This document shows, one piece after another, positions 6,852 to 21,414 of a DNA stretch of 64,000 bases (position 1 is its first letter; each line of letters opens with the position of its first letter). The notes beneath the pieces were generated by a model, which saw nothing but the letters and a program-made list of their open reading frames with translations, ran no database searches and had not been told where the DNA came from. Both the position numbers and the translations under genes were made by a program. The DNA comes from Microthyrium microscopicum (Eukaryota), in assembly GCA_010405405.1 (NCBI GenBank), contig MU004231.1, forward strand, positions 4,142,884 through 4,206,883, written 5' to 3'.

Positions 6852-7506
6852 TGCGCAGAGATGCAGCGAAAGTTGGCGCGGGTGTTTTGATTTCTATTGC
6901 TGGTGATGTTGGTGGTGATGTTGGATACTTTGTGGTTGGTGAAGAGTTATGTTGGTGGAAACGGTGAAGAAGATGTTGGTGGGAGAAAGATCAACAAACG
7001 CCACAAAAAGTTGCCATATGGGTTGGACCTGCCTCAACATTCATGTCCAAGACCAACCAAGACATCTCTCTGTCTCTCCATAGTATGCTGCCTGCCAATA
7101 CATACAACATCGTCTCCAAACAGTAATTTCCCGCTCATAATATCTTAGAGTACTCTTCAGACTTCTTCGTCCCACTGTCTCTCCTTCATCTCAACAACTA
7201 CTACTCCACACCCTCCCTTGCCAACTTGCCTTAACCTGCCAGTTACCCAGCTGCATACCGTAACCCTCAATTATATCCCGCTCTCCTGACACCCTACGCT
7301 ATTATCATACCCTTTACCGCTCTTTCCGTCGCTTGAACATACAATCCCGTCGACTACTTTATTTCTTGTCCTACCTTGAGACTCTCCTCATACTGGAACT
7401 CGGCAAGCGTCAGCGTAATACAGCGTGGGGTTGTGACATGTTACATCACGCATGGAAGAGTGGAAATCTTGGAATCTGAGCACTTCCAGCCGGATATCCG
7501 GTTCTC

Positions 7507-10500
7507 ATGGACGTTCAAGAGGAGGGAAATCATGATGGCTCGTCCATCAAGCCAGTATCATCGCTACGGAACAAGTGGGAGAGCTTAATCCAAGGACATG
7601 CCGCTACACCAGACAAGCCAGGACCAGTTATACCTGCGAGGCCAAGTAGGAAAGATGGCGGCGCAACCATAGGCAATCAAAGAGACGACTCTACAGGCGC
7701 ATCAGAAACCAGAGGAAATGTGCGAGCGTCGTTGGATATTCCTCGTCCTCATGGACTTTATAACTCTTCGGCGCATCAAGCCCAATTGGAATCGATGGTT
7801 TCTCCAGTTAGAGAGGATTCTGGACCGCAGACTCCTAGGACAAAGGCTAGGCCAGCTTCCATGATATCCATGTCTCCTTCGAGATCTCCTCCACGTGTAT
7901 ATGTTGATTCTCCAAAATCCAATCTTCGTCTCCAAACACGGCCAACAAATATCTTTCAGTCTCCGCCAGATATTCGAACAAGTCAGACTACGTCAGGCTC
8001 GCCCACATCACCTACAGCGCCAAATAGATTCAAACTCCCAAACAGGGTGGGAACGCCGGTTGTAGATTCACCCTCTATGCCTCTATTTCAACCATCGCCT
8101 CGAGTGATTCCTGTGACAGATCCGCGCAAACCGTCGTCGCGAATTTCTCCCACTCGAGGAACGGCTTCAGCAAACAATTCTGTCCCGCCACCTATCAACC
8201 GAGCCGGGAAGCCAAAAGCGTTCTCAACCCCGCAACCTCGAAAGATGAATGATAGTCTTGCAGCTCCAGTAAACCATGATATCGACGAGGACAAGGTGTC
8301 TCCTTTCAGCACACCTCCAAGTGAGCCCGAAAGTCCCCCAGCGCTAGACCTACCTCCTCCCATACCAGAATTCTCAAAACCAAAGCAAACTCCTGTTGCC
8401 CAGGCCAGAGACAACTACTTCAGTAGACCGCCCAGACGGCAAGCTGAAGAACACCCTCCTCCGATCAAGCCGCCGAGGCCGACACAGCATGTCGACGAGC
8501 CAGCTACGCCTTTAAGAGGGGACCGGATTCTGCCGCCTCCAATACTACCACCGCGGCGAGATAATGTTCAAGAAAAGCAACCGCCGCAACCCCCTCAATC
8601 TCGCGCGAGATCACCGCATCCTCCACTCCCACCGCAATCTCGAGCACGATCGCCAAAACCACCCTTTCCTCCTCCAGAGCCCCCTGTTAGAAGATCAATG
8701 GATCAAGAGCCTAGATCAACACAACGGAATGTGACGGACGTATCGCGACCCTCTCTAGATAATGATATGATTACTCGTCATCGTAATCAAGACCCTCGCA
8801 ATCTAATACCACCACGCCGAACTGCCACTACAAAGGACCTATCTAGTCTTCCACCTCCGCCACGTCCTCCAAGAACCGATACTCTAAACAATGCTCGAAG
8901 ACAATCTCCGCCGCGGCTATCTGGGGATACTTTAATACCGGGTAGGCGGGGATCAAGACCTCGTGCTCTGGACTCGGAAGACGATGAAGACGAACAATCT
9001 CCAGAACGCAGTACTCCATCAATGGATGATTTTCCTGATGCCTCTCAAGCAAATAGAAGACCACCTAGATTCCTTGAAAAGCCGCATGAGATATTTACCA
9101 AATACGAGACAAAACTCTTCGCCGTGTGTGGCGAGTATTTATGTACTTCAGGTTACATAACTCGCGCATGGAACCTCGTCACTGGGGAGCTATTGCTTAA
9201 TTTGCCTCATGGCGAACACGTAAAGGCTACTTCCCTAGCATTCAAACATGCACGGGATGTTGAAGACGAGGGAAAGCGGATATGGGTGGGAACAAATAAT
9301 GGTGAACTTCACGAGATTGATATTCCAAGCAAGTCCATCATTGCTAGCCGACTCGACGCTCATTCACGCTCCAGTATTGTCAAGATCCACCGACAGATAC
9401 AAGACATGTGGTCCATCGACGAGGAAGGCAAGCTCATGGTCTGGGCCCCAGGAGAAGACGGAACGCCAAGTTTGGACTTGTCTCCCAGCCTGTATCGAAT
9501 ACCTCCCAAGCCTAATTTCATCCTTATATTGGAAAATAGGCTCTGGATCGGCATACAAAAAGGGATATGGGTATACGAACACGATCCCAGCGAACGAACT
9601 GCCCGACAACTCACGAAAAGCCCACTTACTCAACATGGAGTCGGCGACGTGACATCTGGAACCATTGTTACTGGCCAAGCAGATCGCGTGTACTTTGGCC
9701 ACAATGATGGCCGTATCACCATATACAACCGTAAAGACTTTTCGTTCATTGGAGTTGTTCAAGTCAGAGAATACAAAATCAGCTCCTTGGTTGGCGTTGG
9801 TAATTATCTCTGGGCTGGCTTTTATACCGGCATGATATATGTCTATGATACCTCCACTCAACCCTGGAAAGTTCTCAAGGATTGGAAAGCTCACGAAGGT
9901 ACTCTGTTTGGTGTCCAGGTTGACAAAACGAGTATCTGGAAACTTGATCGCCTTCAAGTCGCTTCGCTTGGAACAGACGGAGCTGTAAGATTATGGGACG
10001 GAATGATGACTGATGACTGGCTCGAGAATGATATGCAATTAAGCGATGAGCAATTTTGCACTTTCAACGAAATCACAGCCAGCGTCCTAACATGGAACGC
10101 TGGTGCTTCAAAACCATCAAGTCTCAGAAACGACGATCGAGACAACAACTTCTTCCGGGAGTATCTCTCTGGTTCAGAACCGTCAGACATCTACATCTTT
10201 GGTTTCCAAGAGCTCGTCGATCTCGAAGATGCTGGCAGCACTCGCCGCGACGTCACATCTCAAGTGATGAAGAAGATGTTCAAGCGCGACAAGAAAAAAG
10301 ATGGCGCCTCAGATTCACACTCCCAAGAGCGCATGCGCCACCAATATCTCGACTGGAAAAACCACATCGCCCGCATGCTCGACGAAAATATGCCCTCCGA
10401 CACTACCTACCAGCTTTTGCACACCTCCAACCTTGTCGGCCTCTTCACCTGTATCTTTGTCAAAGACAGCATCCGTCCCCGTATCGATAGTCTCGATGCC

Positions 10501-11328
10501 GCTCAAATCCGCCTCGGCATGGGCGGCCATCTTGGTAACAAAGGCGCCCTCGTAGTCCGCTTTCTCCTCGACGATTCCTCTCTGTGCTTCCTCAACTGCC
10601 ATCTCGCAGCCGGTCAACGACACACGCGCCAACGCAACGAAAACGTCGCCGCAATCATGGAATCCACGCCCCTCCCCACCGCCTCTCATGCTTCTGTGCG
10701 CGCAGCCAGTTTCGTCGGCGGTGGCGATGGCAGCATGGTGCTAGATCACGAGATATGTATTCTGAACGGCGATCTCAACTACCGCATCGACAGCACGCCC
10801 CGTGACACCATCTTTGCAGAGCTACGCCGCGGCCAGCTACACAAGCTGCTTGAGCGCGATCAGCTGCTCGTCAGTCGACGACGAAATCCAGGCTTTCGGT
10901 TGAGAGCGTTTGAGGAGCGGCCGTTGACATTTGCGCCAACGTACAAGTATGATGTGGGGACAGATACATATGACTCGAGCGAGAAGAAACGTGCACCAGC
11001 CTGGTGTGATCGTGTATTGTATCGTGGGCTTGGGCGCATAAAGATGGATGAGTATAAGCGTTGGGAAGTACGGACGAGTGACCATCGGCCGGTGAGCGGA
11101 AGGTTCCGTGTGAGAGTGAAGACGGTGAGGCCGGAGGAGAGGGAACGGGTTCGGCTAGAGGGAGAGCGGAGGTTTGAGGAGGTTAAGATGAAGGTGGGCA
11201 TGGATATCAAGTAAGTTTACATTGCTATCATCGACAAGATGTAGTGGCTAACAGAAATTAGGCTCGATTATCTGGTTAATGTGCTGGGTATGAATGAGAA
11301 GGAGGCTATGAGACGCCTAACGGCGTAG
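7507..11328 (+). CDS. Inositol polyphosphate 5-phosphatase: Pro-rich N-terminus, WD40-like propeller, IPPc domain; terminal intron near 11211-11261
   Basis: TWNAGA, GFQELV, GNKG, NCHLAAG, GDLNYRI, FAPTYKYD and PAWCDRVLY...SDHRPV catalytic motifs; short last exon ...RRLTA*. Confidence 0.93.
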
Positions 11329-12470
11329 TCGATTGAGTGGTAATAGCTGTCTCTCTAGAGAAGATGGGGCTTAGCGATAGGACATTGAGATCATATCATC
11401 ATGAAGATTATTATCAAACTCGTTGACTCCTGATGCTTGCGGCTCAGAGCCTATCAAGATGTGCACTTTTCTATCTCCCAGTATCGCTGCTAATATCAAG
11501 CAACCCGTATCTTACTTATACCAAAAGCTTATGAAACGGTCGCAACAAAAAGTCCAAGTCCTCTTGATACACTACTCAAGACGTCAACAAAACGACTTAC
11601 CCACTCCCGTCGAGTAAGATGTCTACCACCGTACCCTATAGACAGCATACTCTGTGCAGTAAACACCATCACATGCTAATATCCCACCATCGACTTAATT
11701 AGCCAGCCTTGTCACACATCCAGGGCCATCTAATCAGGCTGAATACCCATTACCAATATATCAGCGAATCAGCTAGAGCATCTATCGCAATTCCGCATAT
11801 AGTAGGGGGGGTGATGGATGTACACAGATTTGACTTGACAGGCAGGACGGGTTTGCCCTTTATCTGGGGACGCACTAGGTCGTGCACATTCCACCGCGCT
11901 TTTGGATGTGCCATTGAGATTGCGCTTTTGCGTGGAAGAAAATTATTTGCTTGAGAGTTTGTTACTTATTCTGTGGGTGTGAGAAATGATCGAGTGGTGG
12001 TTTTTATCTGCCAATAATGGACCTTAAGGGGATTGTGATGAGGCTGGCAAAAGCCACCCAGCCTTGCGTATTTTTAAGCAGATTCTGTGGTAAGACCAAC
12101 AGGACGGAGTAGAATGTGTTTATCAGGCATATTCAGTGTCGTTATGAGACTATTTCGGAGCAGCGGATGGTTTTATTTGACTAAAGTTAGACAGCCTTGC
12201 TGAGTCGCGTGGATAGGTATTTAATGTTACTCTATAGCCGTGTAAATTGCAAAGTCCAGGGTGAGAAGGGAGTTGACGGGCCCAAGGCTGAACAAACGTG
12301 GGGAAAGAAAGGGGGCCAGCCAAGGATAGGAGAGGCGTTGGAGAGTTGTCGTTTGGTTTGGGCGTCGGTGTCGTGGTATTGTTTATATAGTTAGCGAGTT
12401 AGCGAGTTAGCGAGTGGTTTTAGTGAGAAAAGGGGACTCTTGCTGATGACTTCGTCGGGTCAGGAAACCT

Positions 12471-12770
12471 TATCATTGCTTATGGCTCCATCGCACTCGC
12501 AATGAGCCATCGCGCTCGCTGGGAGCCATTGCGTGCGATGGGATCTCAATCTACATGTTTGAGATTTGCAGTTCTCGCACCTGTTCGCGGTATTAATATA
12601 TCATTACGCTCTATGGCTTCCAGCGCACTTCTTAACAGCCATCGCGTGCGTTGGAATTTCATCCTATATACTGGAATACTGCGCTTTTGATACCTTTCGG
12701 TCTTGATGGAATATCATCACCCTCTATTGAGTCCCAGCGCACTTCATATCTGCCATCGATTTTGCTGTTT
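12471..12770. repeat. Three degenerate tandem repeats (periods about 128 and 113 bp) with internal palindromy
   Basis: Units start tatcatt/tatcatc at 12471, 12599 and 12712 and share ctatggct(t)cca(g/t)cgcact...gccatcg. Confidence 0.6.
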
Positions 12771-14946
12771 GGTAGGCAGCCTGCATAATAACATGCTTTG
12801 ATTTGAAGCACGCAAGAGAAAAGTGAGTCAAAAACGGACCCACGAGGCTCAAGATTCTGCCACGGGGGGCGCGTGACAATCAACTCTCCACTTCCCAATT
12901 TTGGGCGTATGACTTCCATACTATAGAGAAGATCAGGCGTATGGATACATCTTTAACTAAATCGCAAGGCTCTAGAGGTGTTTGATATGTGTCGTACTTC
13001 AATTGGAAAAGCCAAACGGGAGCTGTGTGGGGTAGAGCAGCAGCAGCAGCAGCAAGGCAAAGGGCCAGTTTGACAACCGGCACACGGCTGATATGTGTAA
13101 TTTTCAATTATCAGGCTACGCTTGCAAGGGCTGAGCTGATTCTACGCCTTTTGTTGGCTTTCGATTGGCTGAGGTGCTTGCGTCGCCGGCTGGATCCGTG
13201 CCATTTTTTATGCACGAGCAGGCTAAGCTGCCGAATCGAACCCTTCAAGGCTGATTGACGTGATAGATGAGTTTCCGCCTCTTCCTCGTTACTTTATCAG
13301 AGCAGAAATGGAGTGACGAATTGACCACTCGAATAAACAGATTCGATCATTGAGGTACTCAAGAATCCGCAACAGTCTAGAGTTATAGGCAGATAAGAAG
13401 CTCTGCCGAAGCTCCAATTCTATCATTCATTTGGCATGGAGATTGAATCATATTGTCGAGCTGGGAATTCATGATAACGACGAAGCCATCTTTGGCAGCT
13501 TTGATGTAAGAAAAAATTGAAGGCAGCGAGAAGGTTTCCAATGGCATCTTGATTACCGGTCGAACATGGAGCGTGCTGAAATGAGCGCGATGCATGATTT
13601 ATGCCTTCAGACATTCACATAACAAGCTCGGAAATGCAATTGGATCAGGCTGATGGCGAACCAGTAAGCGTAGCCAATTGATCACAAATGATCCGATGGG
13701 ACGCCTCCTTCTGGTTAGCTCTTCCTCTTGCGCGATTGTTATGCAACCTTGGAAGTGGTGAGACCCGCGTTGACCTTTCTATTTATCTACTTGGGTGAGA
13801 GAATGGTCTTTGAAATTTGACCCGCGATGTGAAATATACGATAAACAATAATGGTGGTGATGGGATGCAGTAGCCATTGCCTTAATTCTGCACGCTGCAT
13901 TTTTCAGATTGGGGGGTGGGTCACGGTTGTTTAGCGCAATCCCTGCTCAAAGTAGCGTGGCCCCATTACCCAACACAGCAAGGCTGGATGGTTCCTTCCC
14001 CGTCCACCTTCAACCTTCAAGCCTTGCCAGATTTTCTGCTCGCTCTACCCTTTTCATCCTCCGTTCATCCACAACACCATTGCTCTTTCTATTCAATTCC
14101 CTTAGAGCGCGTGGCTCTCATCATCACCTAGCTACAGCCAACCCACCTGCTTACTGCAGCTCAAATTACCGTCTCTTGCTCCTCTGTTTGTAGTCTACCA
14201 TGCTTACCGTGTTCCTCGGCCTTATTGCCAGCGGGACAGCCGCATGGTGAACCCAAGAAGTACACGCAGCGCACTCTTCAGTTCCATCAGCTTTGTCATT
14301 TGTGACAAAAAGCTGGATCTATTGACAAGATCAATCCATAAAGATTCTTTGCTCTGGTATCGAAAAACCGCTTTAGGAGAAAGAGCGTTCTTGTTTGACC
14401 TGTGTGCTGGTTCCATCTATTTCACCCAGGCCACATTTTCAACCACCGGGATACAACATAGTCCCCTGAAAGTTAATCTGTCGCGTCATTCGAAAATACC
14501 ATTCAATATCAACCTCCAACTTGAGCTCAAGTACGGGATTTTCCAACGTGGCTTTCAGTAATACGGATCTGACCACTGCCCATAGGTATCGTTCTTGCCA
14601 ACAAGCTCGGTGGTCACGGGACTTGGAGCTCCTCCTAATTTTGCTCGGCAAGGCTGAGAACCAACCACCATCGCACTTGCTCAATAGAGTAAGTCACCTC
14701 AACCCTCTTTCCTTCTTCAACAGGAAAGACTACAACAGTTCTTTCCTCTTGTATTTGTGCCGGTGGAAGGTTTTTCCTTACCCCACTTAGACATCAGCCT
14801 TATAGTCTCCCTCCTCACCCTCGATTCTAAATTTCTCTAGCATCTCGATTTCCATCAACCTTGCAAGAAATTTTCATCCAAGCATTCAAGCATTCAAGCA
14901 TCCAAACTTTCCATTTCTCAAACAACCAGCAATTCAAGCACTCACC

Positions 14947-17349
14947 ATGCCACCAAAGCGATCTGGACCAGCCAACGAGAGCGGTGAGACTGCTCCTCGC
15001 AAGAGCACTCGAGCAGCCATGCAAGCCGCCAAAAAGGAAGCGGAGGCGGCTGAAGTGGCAGTCAAAACTAACTCTCAGGCCTACCAGCGCAATGTACTTG
15101 CTCGTAGCAAGAAAATTGCCCAACGTCGCCAGCTCTCCAAGGGCATGGATTCCAAACAGGATTCCCCGGAGTCCGAGGCTACTTCTTCCAACCCAGGACC
15201 CAACGGCTCTGAGACCGCTCGTGGCAAGAAGAAAAAGGACCCAAATTCCATCAAAATTCCCGCTGGTAACCTATCATCCTCTGGAGACGGCAATAGTGCC
15301 AATATTGACGATGATCCTCTTATTGACACTGTCTCAGCTCTACCAAAACCTCTGGACATGAAAGGACCTACCTTGTCGACCATGGAGTTCATCATCCCGG
15401 TTCCCTTTGTCAGCCAGTCTGGTGGCCAGTACCAACGAATGATCACTGATAGCAAGGACTTGATCGAGGCATTCACCGCTTCCCGCGCTCCAACGTCTGA
15501 CATGGTCCAAAAGGCTTCGGATTTCGTGGAGTCTATGCGTGACATTTGCTTGCATCTCGATTTCGTCCAAAAACCAAACCTTGACTTTCAAGGCGGCGAG
15601 GTCGAACCATCCCAGCAGGTAAGCTTTAGAGAATAGCACAATTGTCCAGAAGAATTTATAGCTAAAACTTTCAGGCATCATATGATCGCTCCATCAGCTA
15701 CAAGTTCCAACTATTGAGCGACATCTTCACCGCCTTGAAGGATCAGGGCTTCCACATTGTCATCTTCGCCAAAACCCGGCACTTGAACTTGGTTCGTGTC
15801 TTTGTCAAAGGCAGCAACAATGTCGCCAAGTCCAATACGACCGTCACTATCCTCTCCTCTACCGACTTTGAGTCAGACAACTTGCCGTCAGCCAATTTAA
15901 TGATCACCCTTGACAATGAAATGGATATTCATGCCTCTCAGGTTCACGAATTCCGTCAACAAGATGCGTATCTCGTGCCTATTATCTCCTTCGTCATCAA
16001 AAACACCATCGATCACATTGACCAAACTATGAAAGATAGCGTCAATGCAACAGAGCTTCTAGGCGTCGAAAAACTCCAGCACCAAGTTGCATGCATTGCG
16101 AAGCTTCGTGATCATGCCAAATTGAGCACATCCAAACTGAACACTCCCGACAAAGTCCAGATGCCAATCATTGCCGAACTGGTTGCCGACTTTGTTAAGA
16201 ACAAAACCGACAATTCAGAATGGGCAATTCTTCCTATCGGTCCACTGGATGACACAGACTCATACGAATTAGCGAATGGTAACGTTGTTTTGGAAACTGG
16301 AGGTCCCAATAATTCAGAAGAGGTCGTCGATGGGCAGGCGTCAGAAGGTGCGAAACGAAAACGTTCAAGTGAGGATACAGGCGAAGATGTTGGACGTCCA
16401 ACCAAAAAGCAGGTCTTCACTGGCCACGACGACTGCGTCAAGCGCGAGTCTGTCCTATCCCAGCAAATCACTCGCTTGAAACAAGAGCTCTCGGGTGTCC
16501 GCAAAGAGATGACAGGTAAGTGATGCTTTGAACGTGCTATGGCATTCGCCAATCAGCACAGGTCTTAAAGCTTCCAGCTAACATATCCCAGGCAAATTTG
16601 CAGAGCAGACTGAGCTTCGGGAGATAATCGCAGCAAAAGATGCGCACATTCATCGAATGGAGAATGACTGGAATGACACGATCGAAAAGCTACATGCGAA
16701 AGACCGTGCCATCGCTCAACATGAGAAGGACGCTGCGAAATATCGCGACGATTTGGAAAAGTCTCTTGATGTACGACGCCGTCGTGATGAACAAAATTCT
16801 CTCCTTCGATCTCAGATGGAAGAGCTTACTGCGCAGCGTGACGAGGCACGACAAAAGCTTGAGTCCAGCGAGATTCCAGAAATTGCCGAAATGCAGCGCC
16901 TCACTCGTGAAAAAGAGGAGGCCGAAGCCGCTCAAGTCAAGGCCGAAAAACGTTTCGACTCTAGTGAACAACAGGCCGCCTACTTGCGTGATCAATATCA
17001 GCAAAACTCCATTGAAGCCATGAAACTTACCGAAGAAAATGACGAGCTCAAGGCCAAAAACAAAGATTTGGCACGCAAAGCGAGTGGTGAAGCGCGAATG
17101 CTCCGTGAAGCGACTAACGAAGGAATCATCGCACAGCACCTAGAACTCAAAAAGGAAATGGAGGCTGAGATTGTTAGCTTGAAAGCTGCCGTCGCAGCAC
17201 AAGAACTTGAGTTGCAAAAGAAACGAAGCGGTGTGAATACTAGAGCTCAGTCTGTCCCGCGTTCCCCACGAGTAGGTCCCATATCAAGCCGCGCTGGCTC
17301 CCCTATCCCTGACCGTCGAGTGGAGTCGCTGAAGAACAGCTCTCTGTGA
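14947..17349 (+). CDS. Class II histone deacetylase complex subunit (HDA2/HDA3-like) with C-terminal coiled coil; introns 15619-15674 and 16516-16591; about 756 aa if the third intron is unspliced
   Basis: Both introns join ORF-track ORFs in frame. EFIIPVP, DICLHLDF, SYKFQLL..IF, LMITLD and PIISFVIKNTIDHI resemble fungal HDA2-3 family proteins; heptad coiled coil; TRAQSVPRSPR..SRAGSP tail. Family call by eye. Confidence 0.7.
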
Positions 17350-17483
17350 GTTCTCTATTTCATATCGCGTGAATTGCGACTTTGATTCGGTTCGCCAATG
17401 ATGCAAACTTGTTGGCTACACCAGTCTCCGATTCGGTCCTATTTTTTTTGAACCTGATGGAACATGCTGCTGACTTTATTTAG

Positions 17484-19470
17484 TGCCGGCAAGAAAACAA
17501 ACGCGCCCGTCAAGTCAACTCGCGGCCAAACCAACGCACGAGAACCAAACCAGCGCCAGAACCAGCGTCAGACTCAGAAGGAATCCCATTCGCAGCGCCA
17601 AAGTCAAGCAGAAACCGGAAGCCCGCGCCAGACCCAGCGACAGCGCCAGAGCCAGGCTCAGCGTCAAACACAAGCAGAAAGCGGAAGAGAGACGAGTCAG
17701 CGCCAGAAGCAGAACCAGCGCCAGAGTCAAAACGATCGAGAACCCAACCGTCGCACTTCACGCCAGCAGTCACTCGAGCGCGCGCAAGACGACTCGCAGC
17801 AGTCCCTCCCACAGACACAACAGGAACAACCCGACGAGGACGCAATGGAGTTAGATCAGCAACAGCCGAGCCGAGCAGACGGTCTGCTCGACTCAAAGCT
17901 ACCTGAAATACAACCAGCACAACCAACTCGGCCTCCGGCCATTGAGATGAAGAGTGGTCCACCAGCTTCTAGACCATTCCCATGCTGTTTCGCGCAATAT
18001 AATTGTAATGCATCATTTACCTCAAAGAACGAATGGAAACGACACATCAGCACCAAGCATATACAATTAGGTTTCTGGCGATGCGACATGTGTAACCCCT
18101 CCCCCGGCCTCGATCATCCGGTTTTCAACGACTTTAACAGAAAGGATTTATTTACTCAGCATCTTCGACGAATGCATGCACCTAATTCCCCAAGTCTTCC
18201 TACAACTCCGAGCCAAGCCACAGCTCCGGAGCCAATTGTAGATCCAGCCTCTCCTTCAGCAAATGGCCCAAGCGGTCCTCGTGGCGAATTGAGCGATGAG
18301 CAGATTGCAGATATTCAAAAACGTTGCTATCGCATTCTTCGTCAGCCGCCTCAGCAGTCCAATTGCCCATTCTGCAGTCGAATCTTTTCTGGACCAAATA
18401 GTTGGGAAGAGCGTTTAGAGCACGTGGGTGGTCACCTTGAACGCGATCGCAAAAATGGAACAAATTGTCTTGATATTGAATCTTGGCGAGATGATGACGA
18501 GCTGCGTCAATATCTTGTACGAGAAGGAATTGTTGAGCAAGATCAGCGAGGTCAATGGCGTATTGGCGATGGACGTCCTCGACGACCAACTGATATACAG
18601 CCTCCTACATCAAACCCACCATCTGCTACCCCTGGAGCTCAGTCTACAACCATGCTGCAAGGTGAACAGGAATCGGATGGGTCGATGAGTAAGCGTCGTC
18701 GAGGTAGACCCCCGAAGCGTTACTCTGATATCGATACACCACAGAGACTAGCACCAAATATGTCTCCAATGGGTTCACCATCCGAAATACGAGCACGACC
18801 TGAGCAACATTCTCTCCAGCCAGCTCCACCTCACACTCCTGGTCCTCATCCTACTTCAGATATGCGTGGACATCACATTCAACCTCGTATTGATTCCACG
18901 CCTGTTACTCCGATTTCTGGACCTCCTAGTCAACAGTATCATGATTCTTATCATCCACCACCTCTCGCACCGCAATCGCTTCCTCGCCCGCCCCATTCAC
19001 TTGGAACTCCACAACATCCTCAGGATCCAAATTCTGGGAGCTCCAATGGACCTCAGCGACCTCAACTACTCCCACACCTCATGCCACGCCAGCCTCAGAA
19101 TTCTCCTGGACAGGGTCCTATGGGTCCATATGGCAGCCAACAGCAATCCCATCCAGCGAGTGGTCCTCAGGCCGTTGCTATTGCTCCAGCATATCACCAT
19201 CATCATGGTATGCAGGCAATCGCTCCCGCTCCACCACAAAGTCAGGTCGCGCCACCAGCAGCCATTATGGGTCCGAATGGGCCAGTGGCCATTTCACAAG
19301 CCATGCAGCAGCAGTTTGTTGCGCAACAGGCACTTGGTCCAATCAGTCAAGGTTCACCGCTAGGTCCAGCTTTGGCCCCAGCTCCTCAACCTTCCCCTTC
19401 TGCAGAGCAGCTAGGCTCGGAACAGCAACGGCCTCGGACTTTTAGAGAAGTCATTTTTGAGCAGCATTAG
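17484..19470 (+). CDS. C2H2 zinc-finger/AT-hook protein region; probably the last exon of the upstream HDA2/3-like gene (alternatively a separate gene from ATG 17464)
   Basis: FPCCFAQYNCNASFTSKNEWKRHISTKH, WRCDMC..FNRKDLFTQHLRRMH and CPFC..WEERLEHVGGH fingers; AT-hook KRRRGRPPKR; Q/P-rich tail; preceded by GCTGAC..TAG 3' splice signal. Confidence 0.85.
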
Positions 19471-19599
19471 GTCCGCGATCGAAAAGGTGTCGGTCAGATG
19501 ATAGGATGGGAAGACGGCTATTGTCGATGAAGGAGAAGGAAGGGCCTGGGAGTGATGGTGGTGACAATCTGTCGGATGGAGAAACACAATGGCAAGCCA

Positions 19600-19773
19600 C
19601 TGGGTGTTGATGCTTGTTGCTGCTTTGCAGCAATTAAGACCCACCCAGACGGCCTTTAGCTACTGGTTGTTGATGCTTATTGCTGCCTCGCAGCGAGTAA
19701 GACCCATCCAGAAATATTAGCTAGCTACTGGGTGTTGATGCTTATTGCTTCGCAGCAATTAAGACCTACCCAG
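19600..19773 (+). repeat. Three tandem hairpin-forming repeats (period 63-65 bp) in the probable 3' UTR
   Basis: Units at 19600, 19663 and 19728: CTGGGTG-TTGATG-CTTRTTGCTGC-nnn-GCAGCAATTAAG-ACC-CACCCAG. Confidence 0.9.
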
Positions 19774-20304
19774 AAGTTGTTCTTCTGCCCAGCAGATTTG
19801 CTAGCCAGCCTGAGCCTCCAGGCTCGAACAAGGCCAGGCATTGATTGATGTATGAGTATGGATTGGTTTGCAAAAGTTCTCTTATTCTTCTAATGGACAT
19901 GCTTTTGTTTGACAATTCGCGCCAAGTCTCTGTGACATTAATCCATGCTAATATGGCAATATGGCAGTCTAGGTGACTATTAAGAGCAATCGTTTAGTTT
20001 TCGTGACCAAGATTCAGCGACGGTTGAGCCACCATCTCATAATGCTGACAAAGTACAAGATTTCCGGGATTCCGCGCATATGCAGATTGCTAACGACAAG
20101 AGACGGAACGAGTGGGATGTCAGAGTGATGTCAAGAGCTACAGGCAGCCGATGCTTAGCCCCGCGGAATCCCTTCTCGAGTCGCCCCTCGCTCTCTGGAC
20201 AAATCTTTCCGCGATTTCTCAGAGTCAATTAGTGCACCTTTAAAAACCTCATCAATCTCCAATTTTCAATTACCTTCCAGTCAAATCGCTCCTCGTCAGC
20301 CAAT

Positions 20305-21414
20305 ATGTCCAGCTCACTCGACCAATTGAAGGCCACTGGCACCGTAAGAGCTCCCATCTCTCAAGCTCACGATTGACATCACTGCGCTTGATAGACTTCA
20401 CCAAGACGATTGACTAACACCTAAACAGACAGTCGTGTGCGACTCTGGTGACTTTGCCACCATTGATAAGTACAAGCCTCAAGATGCAACCACCAACCCC
20501 TCTCTTATCCTCGCTGCGTCCAAGAAGTCCGAATACGCCGCTCTCATCGACAAAGCTGTTGAATACGGCAAGAAGAAGGGAGGCGATCTTGACCATCAAG
20601 TTGATGCCACACTTGACAATCTCCTTGTGCAATTCGGTAGCGAAATCCTTAAGATCATTCCTGGCAAAGTATCCACGGAAGTCGATGCCCGCTTCTCCTT
20701 CGACACCAAAGCTAGTGTTGACAAGGCCTTGCACATTATCGAACTCTACAAAGAGATTGGCATTGGTAAGGAGCGCATCTTGATCAAGATTGCTAGCACA
20801 TGGGAGGGTATCAAAGCCGCAGAGATTCTGCAACGCGATCATGGCATCAACTGCAACTTGACACTCATGTTCTCGCTCGTCCAAGCTATCGCTGGTGCTG
20901 AAGCAGGTGCTTTCTTGATCTCGCCATTTGTGGGCCGCATTTTGGATTGGTACAAGGCGCACACTGGCAAGACATATGCGGCTTCCGAGGATCCTGGTGT
21001 CCAGAGCGTGGGTAGCATTTACAACTACTACAAGAAGTACGGATACAAGACTATTGTCATGGGTGCTTCGTTCCGAAATGTTGGCGAGATCACAGAGCTT
21101 GCTGGTTGCGATTATCTCACAATCTCGGTAAGATTGCAATTTTCAAAAGATAAGCTTTGCGCTAACTTGTATGATAGCCAAATCTTCTTGAGGATATGTT
21201 TACCTCTCAGGATGCGGTTCCAAAGAAGCTTGATGCTTCCGCTGCTTCGTCTCTTGATATCGAGAAGAAGACATATATCAAAGACGAGGCCACCTTCCGC
21301 TTTGACTTCAACGAGGACCAGATGGCCGTTGAGAAGCTTCGTGAAGGTATCTCCAAGTTTGCAGCTGATGCTGAGACTCTCAAGGGTATCCTGAAGGAAA
21401 AGATCCAAGCATAA
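20305..21414 (+). CDS. TAL1: Transaldolase; 3 exons
   Basis: [76 protein letters not shown]. Confidence 0.98.

What the first reader, a model, noticed from the sequence alone, without database searches (positions are those of the whole stretch)
14947..19470. Splice-dependent fusion of an HDA2/3-like HDAC subunit to a C2H2 zinc-finger/AT-hook protein
Seen: the TGA ending the coiled-coil ORF (17347-17349) lies inside a consensus donor, CT|GTGAGT at 17346. The supposed ATG of the next ORF overlaps a branch site and acceptor (GCTGAC-TTTATTTAG, ending 17483). Splicing gives CT|T GCC GGC in frame, for a 1417-aa protein; retention gives a 756-aa protein ending in the SVPRSPR..SRAGSP tail. Known: Hda2/Hda3 are non-catalytic subunits of the class II Hda1 deacetylase complex, normally recruited by separate factors. 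Inference: one locus could make both an untargeted subunit and a version carrying its own DNA-binding module, switched by intron retention. I do not know of a described example.
Basis: partly seen in the sequence, partly recalled or inferred. Interest (0 to 1): 0.8.

Follow-up and report, generated by a model that had tools for sequence, protein, structure and literature searches.

The report
Hda3-like deacetylase subunit fused to zinc fingers
A fungal gene really is spliced so that a scaffold subunit of a histone deacetylase complex is made in one piece with its own DNA-binding module; this fusion is shared by a small group of related fungi, and the public annotation of this gene misses it.

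Summary
Exons 14947-15618, 15675-16515, 16592-17345 and 17484-19470 give a 1417-aa ORF. One 5598-nt contig of run X1, with no mismatches, lacks all three introns, including 17346-17483.

The N half is Hda3-like. The fold search puts yeast Hda3 on top (E 1.6e-9), and the family profile hits Hda3 at E 8.6e-20. The C half has three C2H2 fingers and one AT-hook.

Fused gene models already exist in Venturia, Verruconis and Trichodelitschia. Two metagenome relatives have the junction intron at the same place and phase. Of the 150 best family representatives, 3 carry the fingers and 109 end within 50 aa of the SVPRSPR tail. The intron therefore sits at the ancestral stop.

The public model of this gene (871 aa) uses another donor and misses the fingers.

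The proposed intron-retention switch is untested, because contigs cannot show it. The stop inside the donor follows from any phase-2 GTRAGT intron. This is a new variant of a known kind. In function it resembles Neurospora HCHC, where an AT-hook protein is a separate HDA-1 partner.

The parts
14659..14688 (+). 3' end of a non-coding leader exon. The contig carries 393 nt upstream of the joint; only these last 30 nt were placed.
   Evidence: The loose-end consensus of the X1 contig maps once here, with 0 hits in 100 shuffles.
14689..14840 (+). 5'-UTR intron (GTAAGT..AG)
   Evidence: The contig piece starts at 14841, directly after AG 14839-14840. The donor GTAAGT is at 14689.
14841..15618 (+). 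Exon with the start codon (ATG 14947). It covers the N-terminal basic region and the start of the Hda3-like domain.
   Evidence: If the 393-nt leader is colinear with the genome, it holds no ATG and has in-frame stops.
15619..15674 (+). Intron 1 (56 nt, GTAAGC..AG)
   Evidence: Skipped in the X1 contig; sites.
15364..16292 (+). Hda3-like globular domain (protein residues ~140-430; contains intron 1)
   Evidence: AlphaFold model pLDDT is ~80-95 here. The Foldseek top hit is yeast Hda3 3hgq_A, E 1.6e-9, TM 0.73 on the target. Exon 2 alone scores 27.7 bits on PF11496.
15675..16515 (+). Exon 2
16516..16591 (+). Intron 2 (76 nt, GTAAGT..AG, branch GCTAAC)
   Evidence: Skipped in the X1 contig.
16592..17345 (+). 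Exon 3: long helical hairpin (coiled coil) and the conserved tail
   Evidence: Predicted helices at residues 486-595 and 600-715, pLDDT 84-92. 38% identity to Venturia effusa P0001.
17251..17334 (+). Conserved tail SVPRSPRVGPISSRAGSPIPDRRVESLK. This is the C-terminus of the unfused relatives.
   Evidence: Invariant SVPRSPR in alignment A1. 109 of the 150 best family representatives end within 50 aa of this motif.
17346..17483 (+). Junction intron (138 nt, phase 2, GTGAGT..CTGAC..AG). It contains the stop TGA 17347-17349 and ATG 17464.
   Evidence: Skipped in the X1 contig with no ambiguity. Same position and phase in L001 and L002.
17272..17277 (+). GTAGGT, the donor used by the public 871-aa model. 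It is not used in the X1 contig.
   Evidence: P0134 reads ..SVPRSPR|CRQENK... The contig runs uninterrupted from 16589 to 17345.
17484..19470 (+). Exon 4 coding part: Q/R-rich linker, three zinc fingers, AT-hook, P/Q-rich tail, stop
   Evidence: No further joint between 17484 and 19700.
17986..18060 (+). C2H2 finger 1 (C-x5-C-x12-H-x4-H)
   Evidence: The SKNEWKRH motif is conserved in all fused and AT-hook-type relatives.
18082..18177 (+). C2H2 finger 2 with a long loop (C-x2-C-x22-H-x4-H)
   Evidence: NDFNRKDLF.QHLRRMH is invariant in A2.
18364..18435 (+). C2H2 finger 3 (C-x2-C-x15-H-x3-H)
   Evidence: The C..C, W..R..H and VG.H positions are invariant in A2.
18691..18720 (+). AT-hook KRRRGRPPKR
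   Evidence: Present in 16 of the 120 listed 'near' hits, all among the best-scoring ones, and absent from the ~510-aa paralogues.
19435..19467 (+). Conserved C-terminal motif RTFREVIFEQH
   Evidence..SFREVIM..SFRDVVMS and ..TFREVIFER at the ends of P0003, P0004, P0021 and P0031.

Best explanation
The region holds one gene, not two. Its mRNA has a non-coding leader exon, a 5'-UTR intron and three coding introns, and it encodes a 1417-aa protein. Residues ~140-430 form an Hda3-like domain, an inactive Snf2-type lobe. Residues ~486-715 form a long helical hairpin like the coiled coil that holds Hda2/Hda3 on Hda1 in yeast. The conserved tail SVPRSPRVGP..PDRR follows. Then, across the junction intron, come a Q/R-rich linker, three C2H2 fingers, one AT-hook and a P/Q-rich tail. 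The gene arose in an ancestor of Microthyriales, Venturiales and Phaeotrichales. The stop of a chromodomain/Hda3-like gene became part of a splice donor, and a downstream paralogue of a widespread ~510-aa C2H2 gene, with an added AT-hook, was joined in frame. Shown here: the splice, the frame, the folds and motifs, and the conservation of the junction. Inferred: the protein is the non-catalytic scaffold of the class II (Hda1-type) deacetylase complex and brings its own DNA anchor, probably with a preference for AT-rich DNA. This would put in one chain what Neurospora HCHC does with a separate AT-hook protein (CHAP). The short 756-aa product of intron retention is possible, but I take it to be a minor by-product.
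For: Splice: a single identical contig skips 17346-17483 and the other two coding introns.
Frame: 4254 nt with one terminal stop.
N half: P0134 against P0137, a PF11496 protein scoring 90.8 bits, gives E 4e-106 end to end. The family profile hits Hda3 6z6f_D at E 8.6e-20 and Hda2 at 0.0025. The model of the window's own exons 1-3 has as best Foldseek hits Hda3 3hgq/3hgt, fission-yeast Ccq1, Hda3 within the whole complex, and Hda2.
C half: finger spacings and AT-hook; the finger residues are invariant in A2.
Conservation of the fusion: 5 of the 13 'longer' hits are fused PF11496 proteins. All five align colinearly to exons 1-4. L001 and L002 have a phase-2 intron at the same residue and an in-frame finger ORF behind it.
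Origin: 3 of the 150 best representatives carry the fingers and 109 of 150 end within 50 aa of the tail motif. Named unfused members come from Pleosporales-type and Capnodiales-type genera. The finger tree has one clade (SH-aLRT 100) holding the window, all 5 fused rows, all 17 AT-hook rows and 1 row without an AT-hook, nested among stand-alone proteins without an AT-hook.
Against: The only expression evidence is one assembled contig from one run whose RNA nature is a guess. It gives no isoform ratios and no ends.
The full-length N half gets no Pfam hit at E<=0.01. Exon 2 alone passes the cut-off by only 0.7 bit.
The C2H2 Pfam models stay below their cut-offs (best 21.9 against 22.6). Foldseek on the finger model found nothing at E<=0.001.
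The linker is not conserved in either frame.
Several pipelines model the relatives as unfused proteins that end at the donor stop (P0136, P0137, P0140, P0142-P0146, P0149).
Binding to an Hda1 orthologue, DNA binding and AT preference are all untested.
The window's protein has no chromodomain, so its link to heterochromatin readers is unknown.
Confidence: 0.75

Rival explanations
1. The junction intron is retained in a regulated share of transcripts. The locus then makes both a 756-aa untargeted Hda3-like subunit, equal in extent to the ancestral protein, and the 1417-aa DNA-targeted form.
For: Retention would end the protein 4 residues after the conserved tail, where unfused relatives end. The intron is 138 nt, longer than the other two coding introns of 56 and 76 nt. 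That intron retention is the commonest alternative splicing in fungi is general knowledge, not a call.
Against: No retained form was seen, although contigs cannot exclude one. The immediate stop follows from phase 2 plus GTRAGT and needs no selection. The intron's length is not kept: about 55 nt in L002 and about 290 nt in L001. In relatives with a GTATGT donor, the gene models read on into the intron for 12-60 codons (P0135, P0138, P0139), so an exact short product is not conserved. A retained transcript would carry a ~2.1-kb 3' UTR and would probably be degraded (inference).
Confidence: 0.12
2. The public model is right. The donor at 17272 joins the same acceptor, the reading frame shifts, and an 871-aa protein ends at 17906 without zinc fingers.
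For: This model is deposited as P0134. GTAGGT is a usable donor, and the +1 frame is open for 140 codons.
Against: The X1 contig runs through 17272 to 17345. The model cuts off the VGP..SPIPDRR tail that is conserved in all relatives. Its last 140 residues match nothing and are predicted to be disordered. It leaves a strongly conserved 660-codon ORF untranslated.
Confidence: 0.05
3. There are two separate neighbouring genes. The junction comes from occasional read-through transcription or from assembly across overlapping transcripts.
For: Several pipelines call separate proteins in relatives. A contig across two genes does not by itself prove a single transcript (note).
Against: The joint is a GT..AG splice that removes the stop and the only nearby ATG and keeps the frame. 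The same intron position and phase are kept in three lineages. The finger ORFs of relatives have no conserved start: P0021 begins without M, and L002 has none. The AT-hook-type fingers form one clade with all the fused models.
Confidence: 0.05

Closest known systems
Saccharomyces cerevisiae Hda3 (and Hda2), non-catalytic subunits of the Hda1 class II deacetylase complex (Pfam PF11496; PDB 3hgq, 6z6f, 6z6o)
   Same: An inactive Snf2-like globular domain followed by a long coiled coil. Shown by a profile hit at E 8.6e-20 and a fold hit at E 1.6e-9, TM 0.73.
   Different: 14-15% sequence identity. The window's protein continues into three C2H2 fingers and an AT-hook, which yeast Hda3 lacks. Whether a second, Hda2-like partner exists in this fungus could not be checked, because no genome is held.
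Fused gene models in Venturia effusa (P0001), V. inaequalis (P0002), Verruconis gallopava (P0004), Trichodelitschia bisporula (P0005) and a JGI protein (P0003)
   Same: The same order of parts: Hda3-like domain, coiled coil, SVPRSPR tail, linker, three fingers, AT-hook..FREVIM end.
   Different: P0001, P0002, P0004 and P0005 have a long N-terminal extension. In three of them it carries a weak chromodomain (16-17 bits, below the cut-off). The window's protein, like P0003, lacks the extension. None of these models was found described in a paper.
Neurospora crassa HCHC complex: HDA-1 with CDP-2 (chromodomain protein) and CHAP (AT-hook protein)
   Same: In function: a class II deacetylase is brought to chromatin by accessory proteins, one of which binds AT-rich DNA through AT-hooks (passages read in PMC10349943, and PMC12519133). 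The unfused relatives of the N half are named 'Chromo domain-containing protein'.
   Different: In Neurospora these are separate polypeptides, and CHAP is said to have two AT-hooks, whereas this protein has one. That CHAP has zinc fingers is my recollection only.
Fission-yeast Ccq1 (PDB 7cuj) and the SHREC complex
   Same: The Ccq1 fold is the 4th and 5th best match of the N-half model (E 1.5e-8). SHREC contains the Hda1 homologue Clr3 (passage).
   Different: Ccq1 has no zinc-finger extension. That SHREC's Clr1 is a zinc-finger protein and that Ccq1 recruits SHREC are recalled, not checked here.

Membership tests
HDA2-3 (Pfam PF11496; Hda2/Hda3-like) | Score above the Pfam gathering cut-off (27 bits) | tested here: inconclusive
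   Exon 2 alone scores 27.7 bits, E 1.9e-6. Exons 1-3 within P0134 give no hit at E<=0.01. Relatives score 58-92 bits.
HDA2-3 (Pfam PF11496; Hda2/Hda3-like) | Sequence homology to accepted members and to yeast Hda3 | tested here: met
   P0134 against P0137 gives E 4e-106 and 33% identity over ~740 aa. The profile of 9 family members, which includes the window's protein, hits Hda3 at E 8.6e-20 and Hda2 at 0.0025. phmmer with P0134 alone finds no Hda3.
HDA2-3 (Pfam PF11496; Hda2/Hda3-like) | Fold of the Hda3 DNA-binding domain (Snf2-type lobe without ATPase function) | tested here: met
   Foldseek ranks 1-3 are 3hgq/3hgt (E 1.6e-9, TM 0.71-0.75 on the target). They are followed by Ccq1, Hda3 and Hda2 in 6z6o/6z6f, and then Snf2 ATPases.
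HDA2-3 (Pfam PF11496; Hda2/Hda3-like) | C-terminal coiled coil | tested here: met
   Two predicted helices, 486-595 and 600-715, pLDDT 84-92. This is a prediction only.
HDA2-3 (Pfam PF11496; Hda2/Hda3-like) | Binds an Hda1-type deacetylase and is needed for its activity | not testable with these tools
   Needs co-purification and an enzyme assay.
C2H2 zinc finger | Cys-Cys...His-His spacing with conserved ligands | tested here: met
   Three units at 17986-18060, 18082-18177 and 18364-18435. For fingers 2 and 3, all but the first Cys of finger 2 are listed as invariant across 19 sequences. Finger 1's ligands are not in that list, though the consensus keeps them.
C2H2 zinc finger | Pfam C2H2 model above its cut-off, or a significant fold match | tested here: not met
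   The best Pfam hit is zf-C2H2_jaz at 21.9 bits against 22.6. Foldseek finds no match at E<=0.001; the best rows (E 0.007-0.6) are nearly all C2H2 arrays such as CTCF, TFIIIA, WT1 and Zif268.
AT-hook | Arg-Gly-Arg-Pro core flanked by basic residues | tested here: met
   KRRRGRPPKR at 18691-18720, conserved in the fused clade. Binding to AT-rich DNA is not testable here.
Neurospora CDP-2 (HCHC) | Chromodomain | tested here: not met
   No Chromo hit in any exon. The chromodomain-bearing N-termini of relatives find nothing in the window.
Neurospora CDP-2 / CHAP (HCHC) | Orthology to the N. crassa proteins | not tested
The locus tags I recalled occur in no held paper, and the original papers are not held.

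The most novel reading that the evidence does not exclude
The junction intron was made from the ancestral stop codon and the spacer between two genes, and it is still used as a valve. Spliced, it gives a deacetylase scaffold with a built-in DNA anchor. Retained, it gives back the ancestral free scaffold. Splicing would then set how much of the class II deacetylase complex is tethered to AT-rich DNA. As a corollary, the fusion predicts that the stand-alone ~510-aa C2H2 paralogues, and perhaps Neurospora CHAP, dock on the SVPRSPR tail region of chromodomain/Hda3-like proteins in fungi where the genes are separate.
Probability: 0.12. Interest if true: 0.7.

Novelty: new variant of a known kind. 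Interest (0 to 1): 0.5.

Why it matters
Little is known about how Hda1-type deacetylase complexes are built and targeted outside yeasts. A 2021 review states that no Hda2/Hda3 orthologues could be identified outside Saccharomycotina (passage in PMC8535771).

This work shows three things:
- An Hda3-like family is large, with 1167 representatives at E<=0.001. All members whose names were looked up are Dothideomycetes.
- In one clade the family is fused to a DNA-binding module.
- The fusion point is the old C-terminus.

A natural fusion of this kind is a strong hint that the two parts work together where they are separate. It therefore gives testable partners for the deacetylase scaffold in other fungi, including plant pathogens such as Venturia and Zymoseptoria. 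It also corrects a public gene model.

Tried and rejected
- No RNA holder listed. The single run found (X1) is only guessed to be RNA.
- No whole genome is held, so the search for a second Hda2/3 gene, a separate chromodomain gene and synteny was not possible.
- The metagenome scan gave only two short loci of 1249 and 1207 nt.
- Chromodomain remnant upstream: tblastn of 12 N-termini against 11000-15000 gave nothing below E 0.3.
- Linker conservation: neither frame matches any relative, best E 0.74.
- phmmer of P0134 against PDB found only a coiled-coil chance hit.
- Foldseek of the finger model found nothing at E<=0.001.
- The ESM Atlas gave only unnamed Ascomycota C2H2 clusters.
- Earlier findings of this scan: nothing by place, by sequence or by words.
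- Papers: Honda 2012 and 2016 and Job 2016 are not held. One review hit for 'CHAP' turned out to be the word 'chaperone'.
- I first thought the gene was a plain CDP-2::CHAP fusion. The tree instead makes the finger half a Dothideomycete paralogue of a stand-alone C2H2 family, so I keep HCHC only as a functional analogue.
- No complex prediction was run.
Full report
**The sequence**

The region was read and its ORFs listed under the standard code. A script checked the arithmetic. Exons 14947-15618, 15675-16515, 16592-17345 and 17484-19470 sum to 4254 nt, which is 1417 codons plus one terminal stop. The introns are 56, 76 and 138 nt, with donors GTAAGC, GTAAGT and GTGAGT. Their branch-like sites are GCTAAA, GCTAAC and GCTGAC, and each ends in AG. 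Keeping the third intron gives 756 aa ending ..KNSSL.

**RNA evidence**

One public run (X1) holds 0.89 of the sampled words of 14700-19700. Its record does not say that it is RNA. Laid on the stretch, a single 5598-nt contig matches with 0 other letters. It skips exactly 15619-15674, 16516-16591 and 17346-17483, the last with GT..AG ends and no positional ambiguity.

The contig also carries 393 nt before 14841. The 30-nt consensus next to that joint maps once, at 14659-14688, followed by GTAAGT. The acceptor AG is at 14839-14840. So there is a leader exon and a 152-nt 5'-UTR intron. If the leader is colinear with the genome, it has no ATG and has in-frame stops, which makes ATG 14947 the first start codon. 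I placed only the last 30 nt of the leader.

A contig that has lost four introns cleanly is processed RNA. However, it is one assembled path from one run, and it says nothing about rare isoforms, transcript ends or expression levels.

**The public model**

A search with exon 3 found P0134, an NCBI protein named hypothetical protein BT63DRAFT_169554 [Microthyrium microscopicum]. It is 871 aa and 100% identical to exon 3 over 90% of its length. The species belongs to Dothideomycetes, Microthyriales.

The sequence of P0134 follows exons 1-3 up to ..SVPRSPR. It then jumps from a GTAGGT donor at 17272 to the same acceptor and reads the +1 frame (CRQENK...LKAT) to a stop at 17906. This model cuts off the conserved end of the tail and leaves out all the zinc fingers. 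The X1 contig runs through 17272 without a break. The 140 odd residues match no relative and are predicted to be disordered.

No 100%-identical protein containing the fingers appeared in the two length classes searched. The finger half therefore seems to be unannotated in the public protein set.

**The N half**

- Pfam on single exons: exon 2 hits HDA2-3 (PF11496) at 27.7 bits, just over the cut-off of 27.
- Pfam on the whole N half within P0134: nothing at E<=0.01. The window's copy is therefore a divergent member.
- It is nevertheless a full-length homologue of clear members. P0134 against P0137 (PF11496, 90.8 bits) gives E 4e-106.
- A profile of nine such proteins (A1) hits yeast Hda3 in the solved Hda1 complex at E 8.6e-20 and the Hda3 DNA-binding domain at 4.8e-19. 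It also hits Snf2 ATPases at about 1e-6 and Hda2 at 0.0025.
- An AlphaFold model of P0134, built from 22 aligned relatives, is confident for residues ~140-430 and for two long helices at 486-595 and 600-715.
- The best Foldseek matches of this model are Hda3 (3hgq_A, E 1.6e-9, TM 0.73 on the target), fission-yeast Ccq1, Hda3 and Hda2 within the complex, and then Snf2-family motors.

The N half is thus Hda3-like by sequence profile and by fold.

**The C half**

Exon 4 holds three Cys2-His2 units at 17986-18060, 18082-18177 and 18364-18435. It also holds an AT-hook, KRRRGRPPKR, at 18691-18720 and a conserved end, RTFREVIFEQH. All but one of the metal ligands of fingers 2 and 3 are listed as invariant across 19 aligned proteins. 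Those of finger 1 are kept in the consensus but are not in that list.

Pfam's C2H2 models stay just under their cut-offs, the best being 21.9 against 22.6 bits. The AlphaFold model has a mean pLDDT of 67. Foldseek gives no match at E<=0.001, although the best weak rows are nearly all C2H2 arrays.

**Relatives with the fusion**

Searching the finger region among longer proteins gave 13 hits, 5 of which carry PF11496:
- Venturia effusa, 2072 aa
- V. inaequalis, 2102 aa
- Verruconis gallopava, 2010 aa
- Trichodelitschia bisporula, 1649 aa
- a JGI protein, 1474 aa

All five align colinearly to exons 1-2, 3 and 4 of the window. All have the motif SVPRSPRVGP.SRA.SPIPDRRI..LK just before the linker.

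Two short metagenome contigs show the underlying DNA. In both, the coiled-coil ORF ends in TT|GTAAGA or TT|GTGAGT, and an acceptor restores the frame into the finger ORF. The intron is at the same residue and in the same phase as in the window.

Other pipelines end the protein at that donor. These include P0136, P0137, P0140 and P0142-P0146 and Tothia fuscella P0149. The same locus type is therefore modelled both ways in public data. Matching contig lengths suggest that P0142/P0021, P0135/P0031 and P0150/P0019 are such split pairs. That pairing is an inference.

**Origin**

The A1 profile was searched against 1.84 billion representatives. It found 1167 proteins at E<=0.001 and 572 at E<=1e-30.

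Of the 150 best:
- 3 carry finger motifs (P0003, P0004, P0005).
- 124 have the tail motif.
- 109 end within 50 residues of it.

All 34 long representatives that I sampled have PF11496, 33 of them above the cut-off.

Named unfused members are mostly called 'Chromo domain-containing protein'. They come from Delitschia, Zopfia, Amniculicola, Aaosphaeria, Lophiotrema, Polyplosphaeria and Lindgomyces, and from Hortaea, Zymoseptoria, Baudoinia, Acidomyces, Salinomyces and Recurvomyces. So the ancestral protein ended where the junction intron now begins.

The finger half has a large family of stand-alone relatives. There were 1427 hits, and the 120 listed include ~510-aa proteins from Venturia and Verruconis themselves. 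Only 16 of the 120 have the AT-hook core, all among the best-scoring rows.

A tree of 65 finger regions was built, leaving out 68 of the 102 rows without an AT-hook. One clade (SH-aLRT 100) holds the window, all 5 fused rows, all 17 AT-hook rows and one row without an AT-hook. It is nested among the stand-alone proteins (quick search, rooted on 8 long outgroup rows, two of them on very long branches).

The simplest reading is a duplication of a C2H2 gene, gain of an AT-hook, and fusion behind the Hda3-like gene through conversion of the stop into a splice donor. This would have happened in an ancestor of Microthyriales, Venturiales and Phaeotrichales (taxonomy). That these orders are each other's relatives is my recollection of published phylogenomics, not a call.

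**The switch idea**

In a phase-2 intron the codon after the exon's last two bases plus G is made of intron bases 2-4. With the usual GTAAGT or GTGAGT donor, that codon is TAA or TGA. The 'stop inside the donor' is therefore automatic and is also seen in L001 and L002.

In relatives with a GTATGT donor, gene models read 12-60 codons into the intron (P0135, P0138, P0139). Intron length varies from about 55 to about 290 nt. Nothing here shows retention, and contigs cannot exclude it. It remains a fair hypothesis, because the retained form would equal the ancestral protein in extent.

**Comparison with what is known**

The N half is a member of the Hda2/Hda3 family and is closest to Hda3.

The whole protein works, by inference, like the accessory part of the Neurospora HCHC complex. 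There, CDP-2 links HDA-1 to HP1, and CHAP binds AT-rich DNA with two AT-hooks (passages in PMC10349943, and PMC12519133). I could not test orthology to CDP-2 or CHAP. The window's protein also lacks a chromodomain.

Searches of the held papers for such a fusion, for PF11496, and for HCHC in Dothideomycetes found no description. I read search listings and passages only. I opened no supplements, and the two founding HCHC papers were not available.

**Verdict**

The architecture is a clade-wide natural fusion that is already visible in databases but that I found described in no paper. The retention switch is unproven.

Noticed in passing
window 19595-19775: A 63-nt unit repeated 2.9 times (79% matches) lies in the 3' UTR. 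The X1 contig differs here by a 3-letter deletion at 19618 and a 'goes back 106' joint, so the copy number or register of the repeat may differ between the RNA contig and the genome.
   Followed up: partly
window 17484-17906: Two reading frames are open at once in the linker: the RNA-supported Q/R-rich frame and the +1 P/A/E-rich frame used by the public model. The stretch contains short 12-19-nt tandem repeats. Neither frame is conserved in relatives, so the linker evolves fast.
   Followed up: partly
window 14296-14946: The leader is long (about 500 nt after splicing). It has its own intron and, if colinear with the genome, not a single ATG.
   Followed up: partly
window 11215-14295: About 3 kb between the upstream long ORF (7480-11214, +) and this gene holds no ORF of 120 aa or more on either strand and no remnant of a chromodomain exon. 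What it contains was not examined.
   Followed up: no
window 7480-11214 and 20414-21394: Neighbouring ORFs. By eye, the upstream 1244-aa ORF ends in a phosphatase-like region of the endonuclease/exonuclease/phosphatase type, and the downstream ORF looks like a transaldolase. Neither was searched.
   Followed up: no
protein family level (P0147-P0291): A 2021 review says no Hda2/Hda3 orthologues could be identified outside Saccharomycotina. Yet the profile finds 1167 representatives, and 33 of the 34 sampled pass Pfam's HDA2-3 cut-off. The chromodomain that UniProt names in them is too divergent for Pfam: only 1 of 34 hits at E<=0.01.
   Followed up: partly
model of P0134 residues ~140-430: Fission-yeast Ccq1 (7cuj) is as good a structural match as Hda3 within the complex (E 1.5e-8). 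This links the fold to another protein that, from my recollection, works with a Clr3/Hda1-type deacetylase complex.
   Followed up: no
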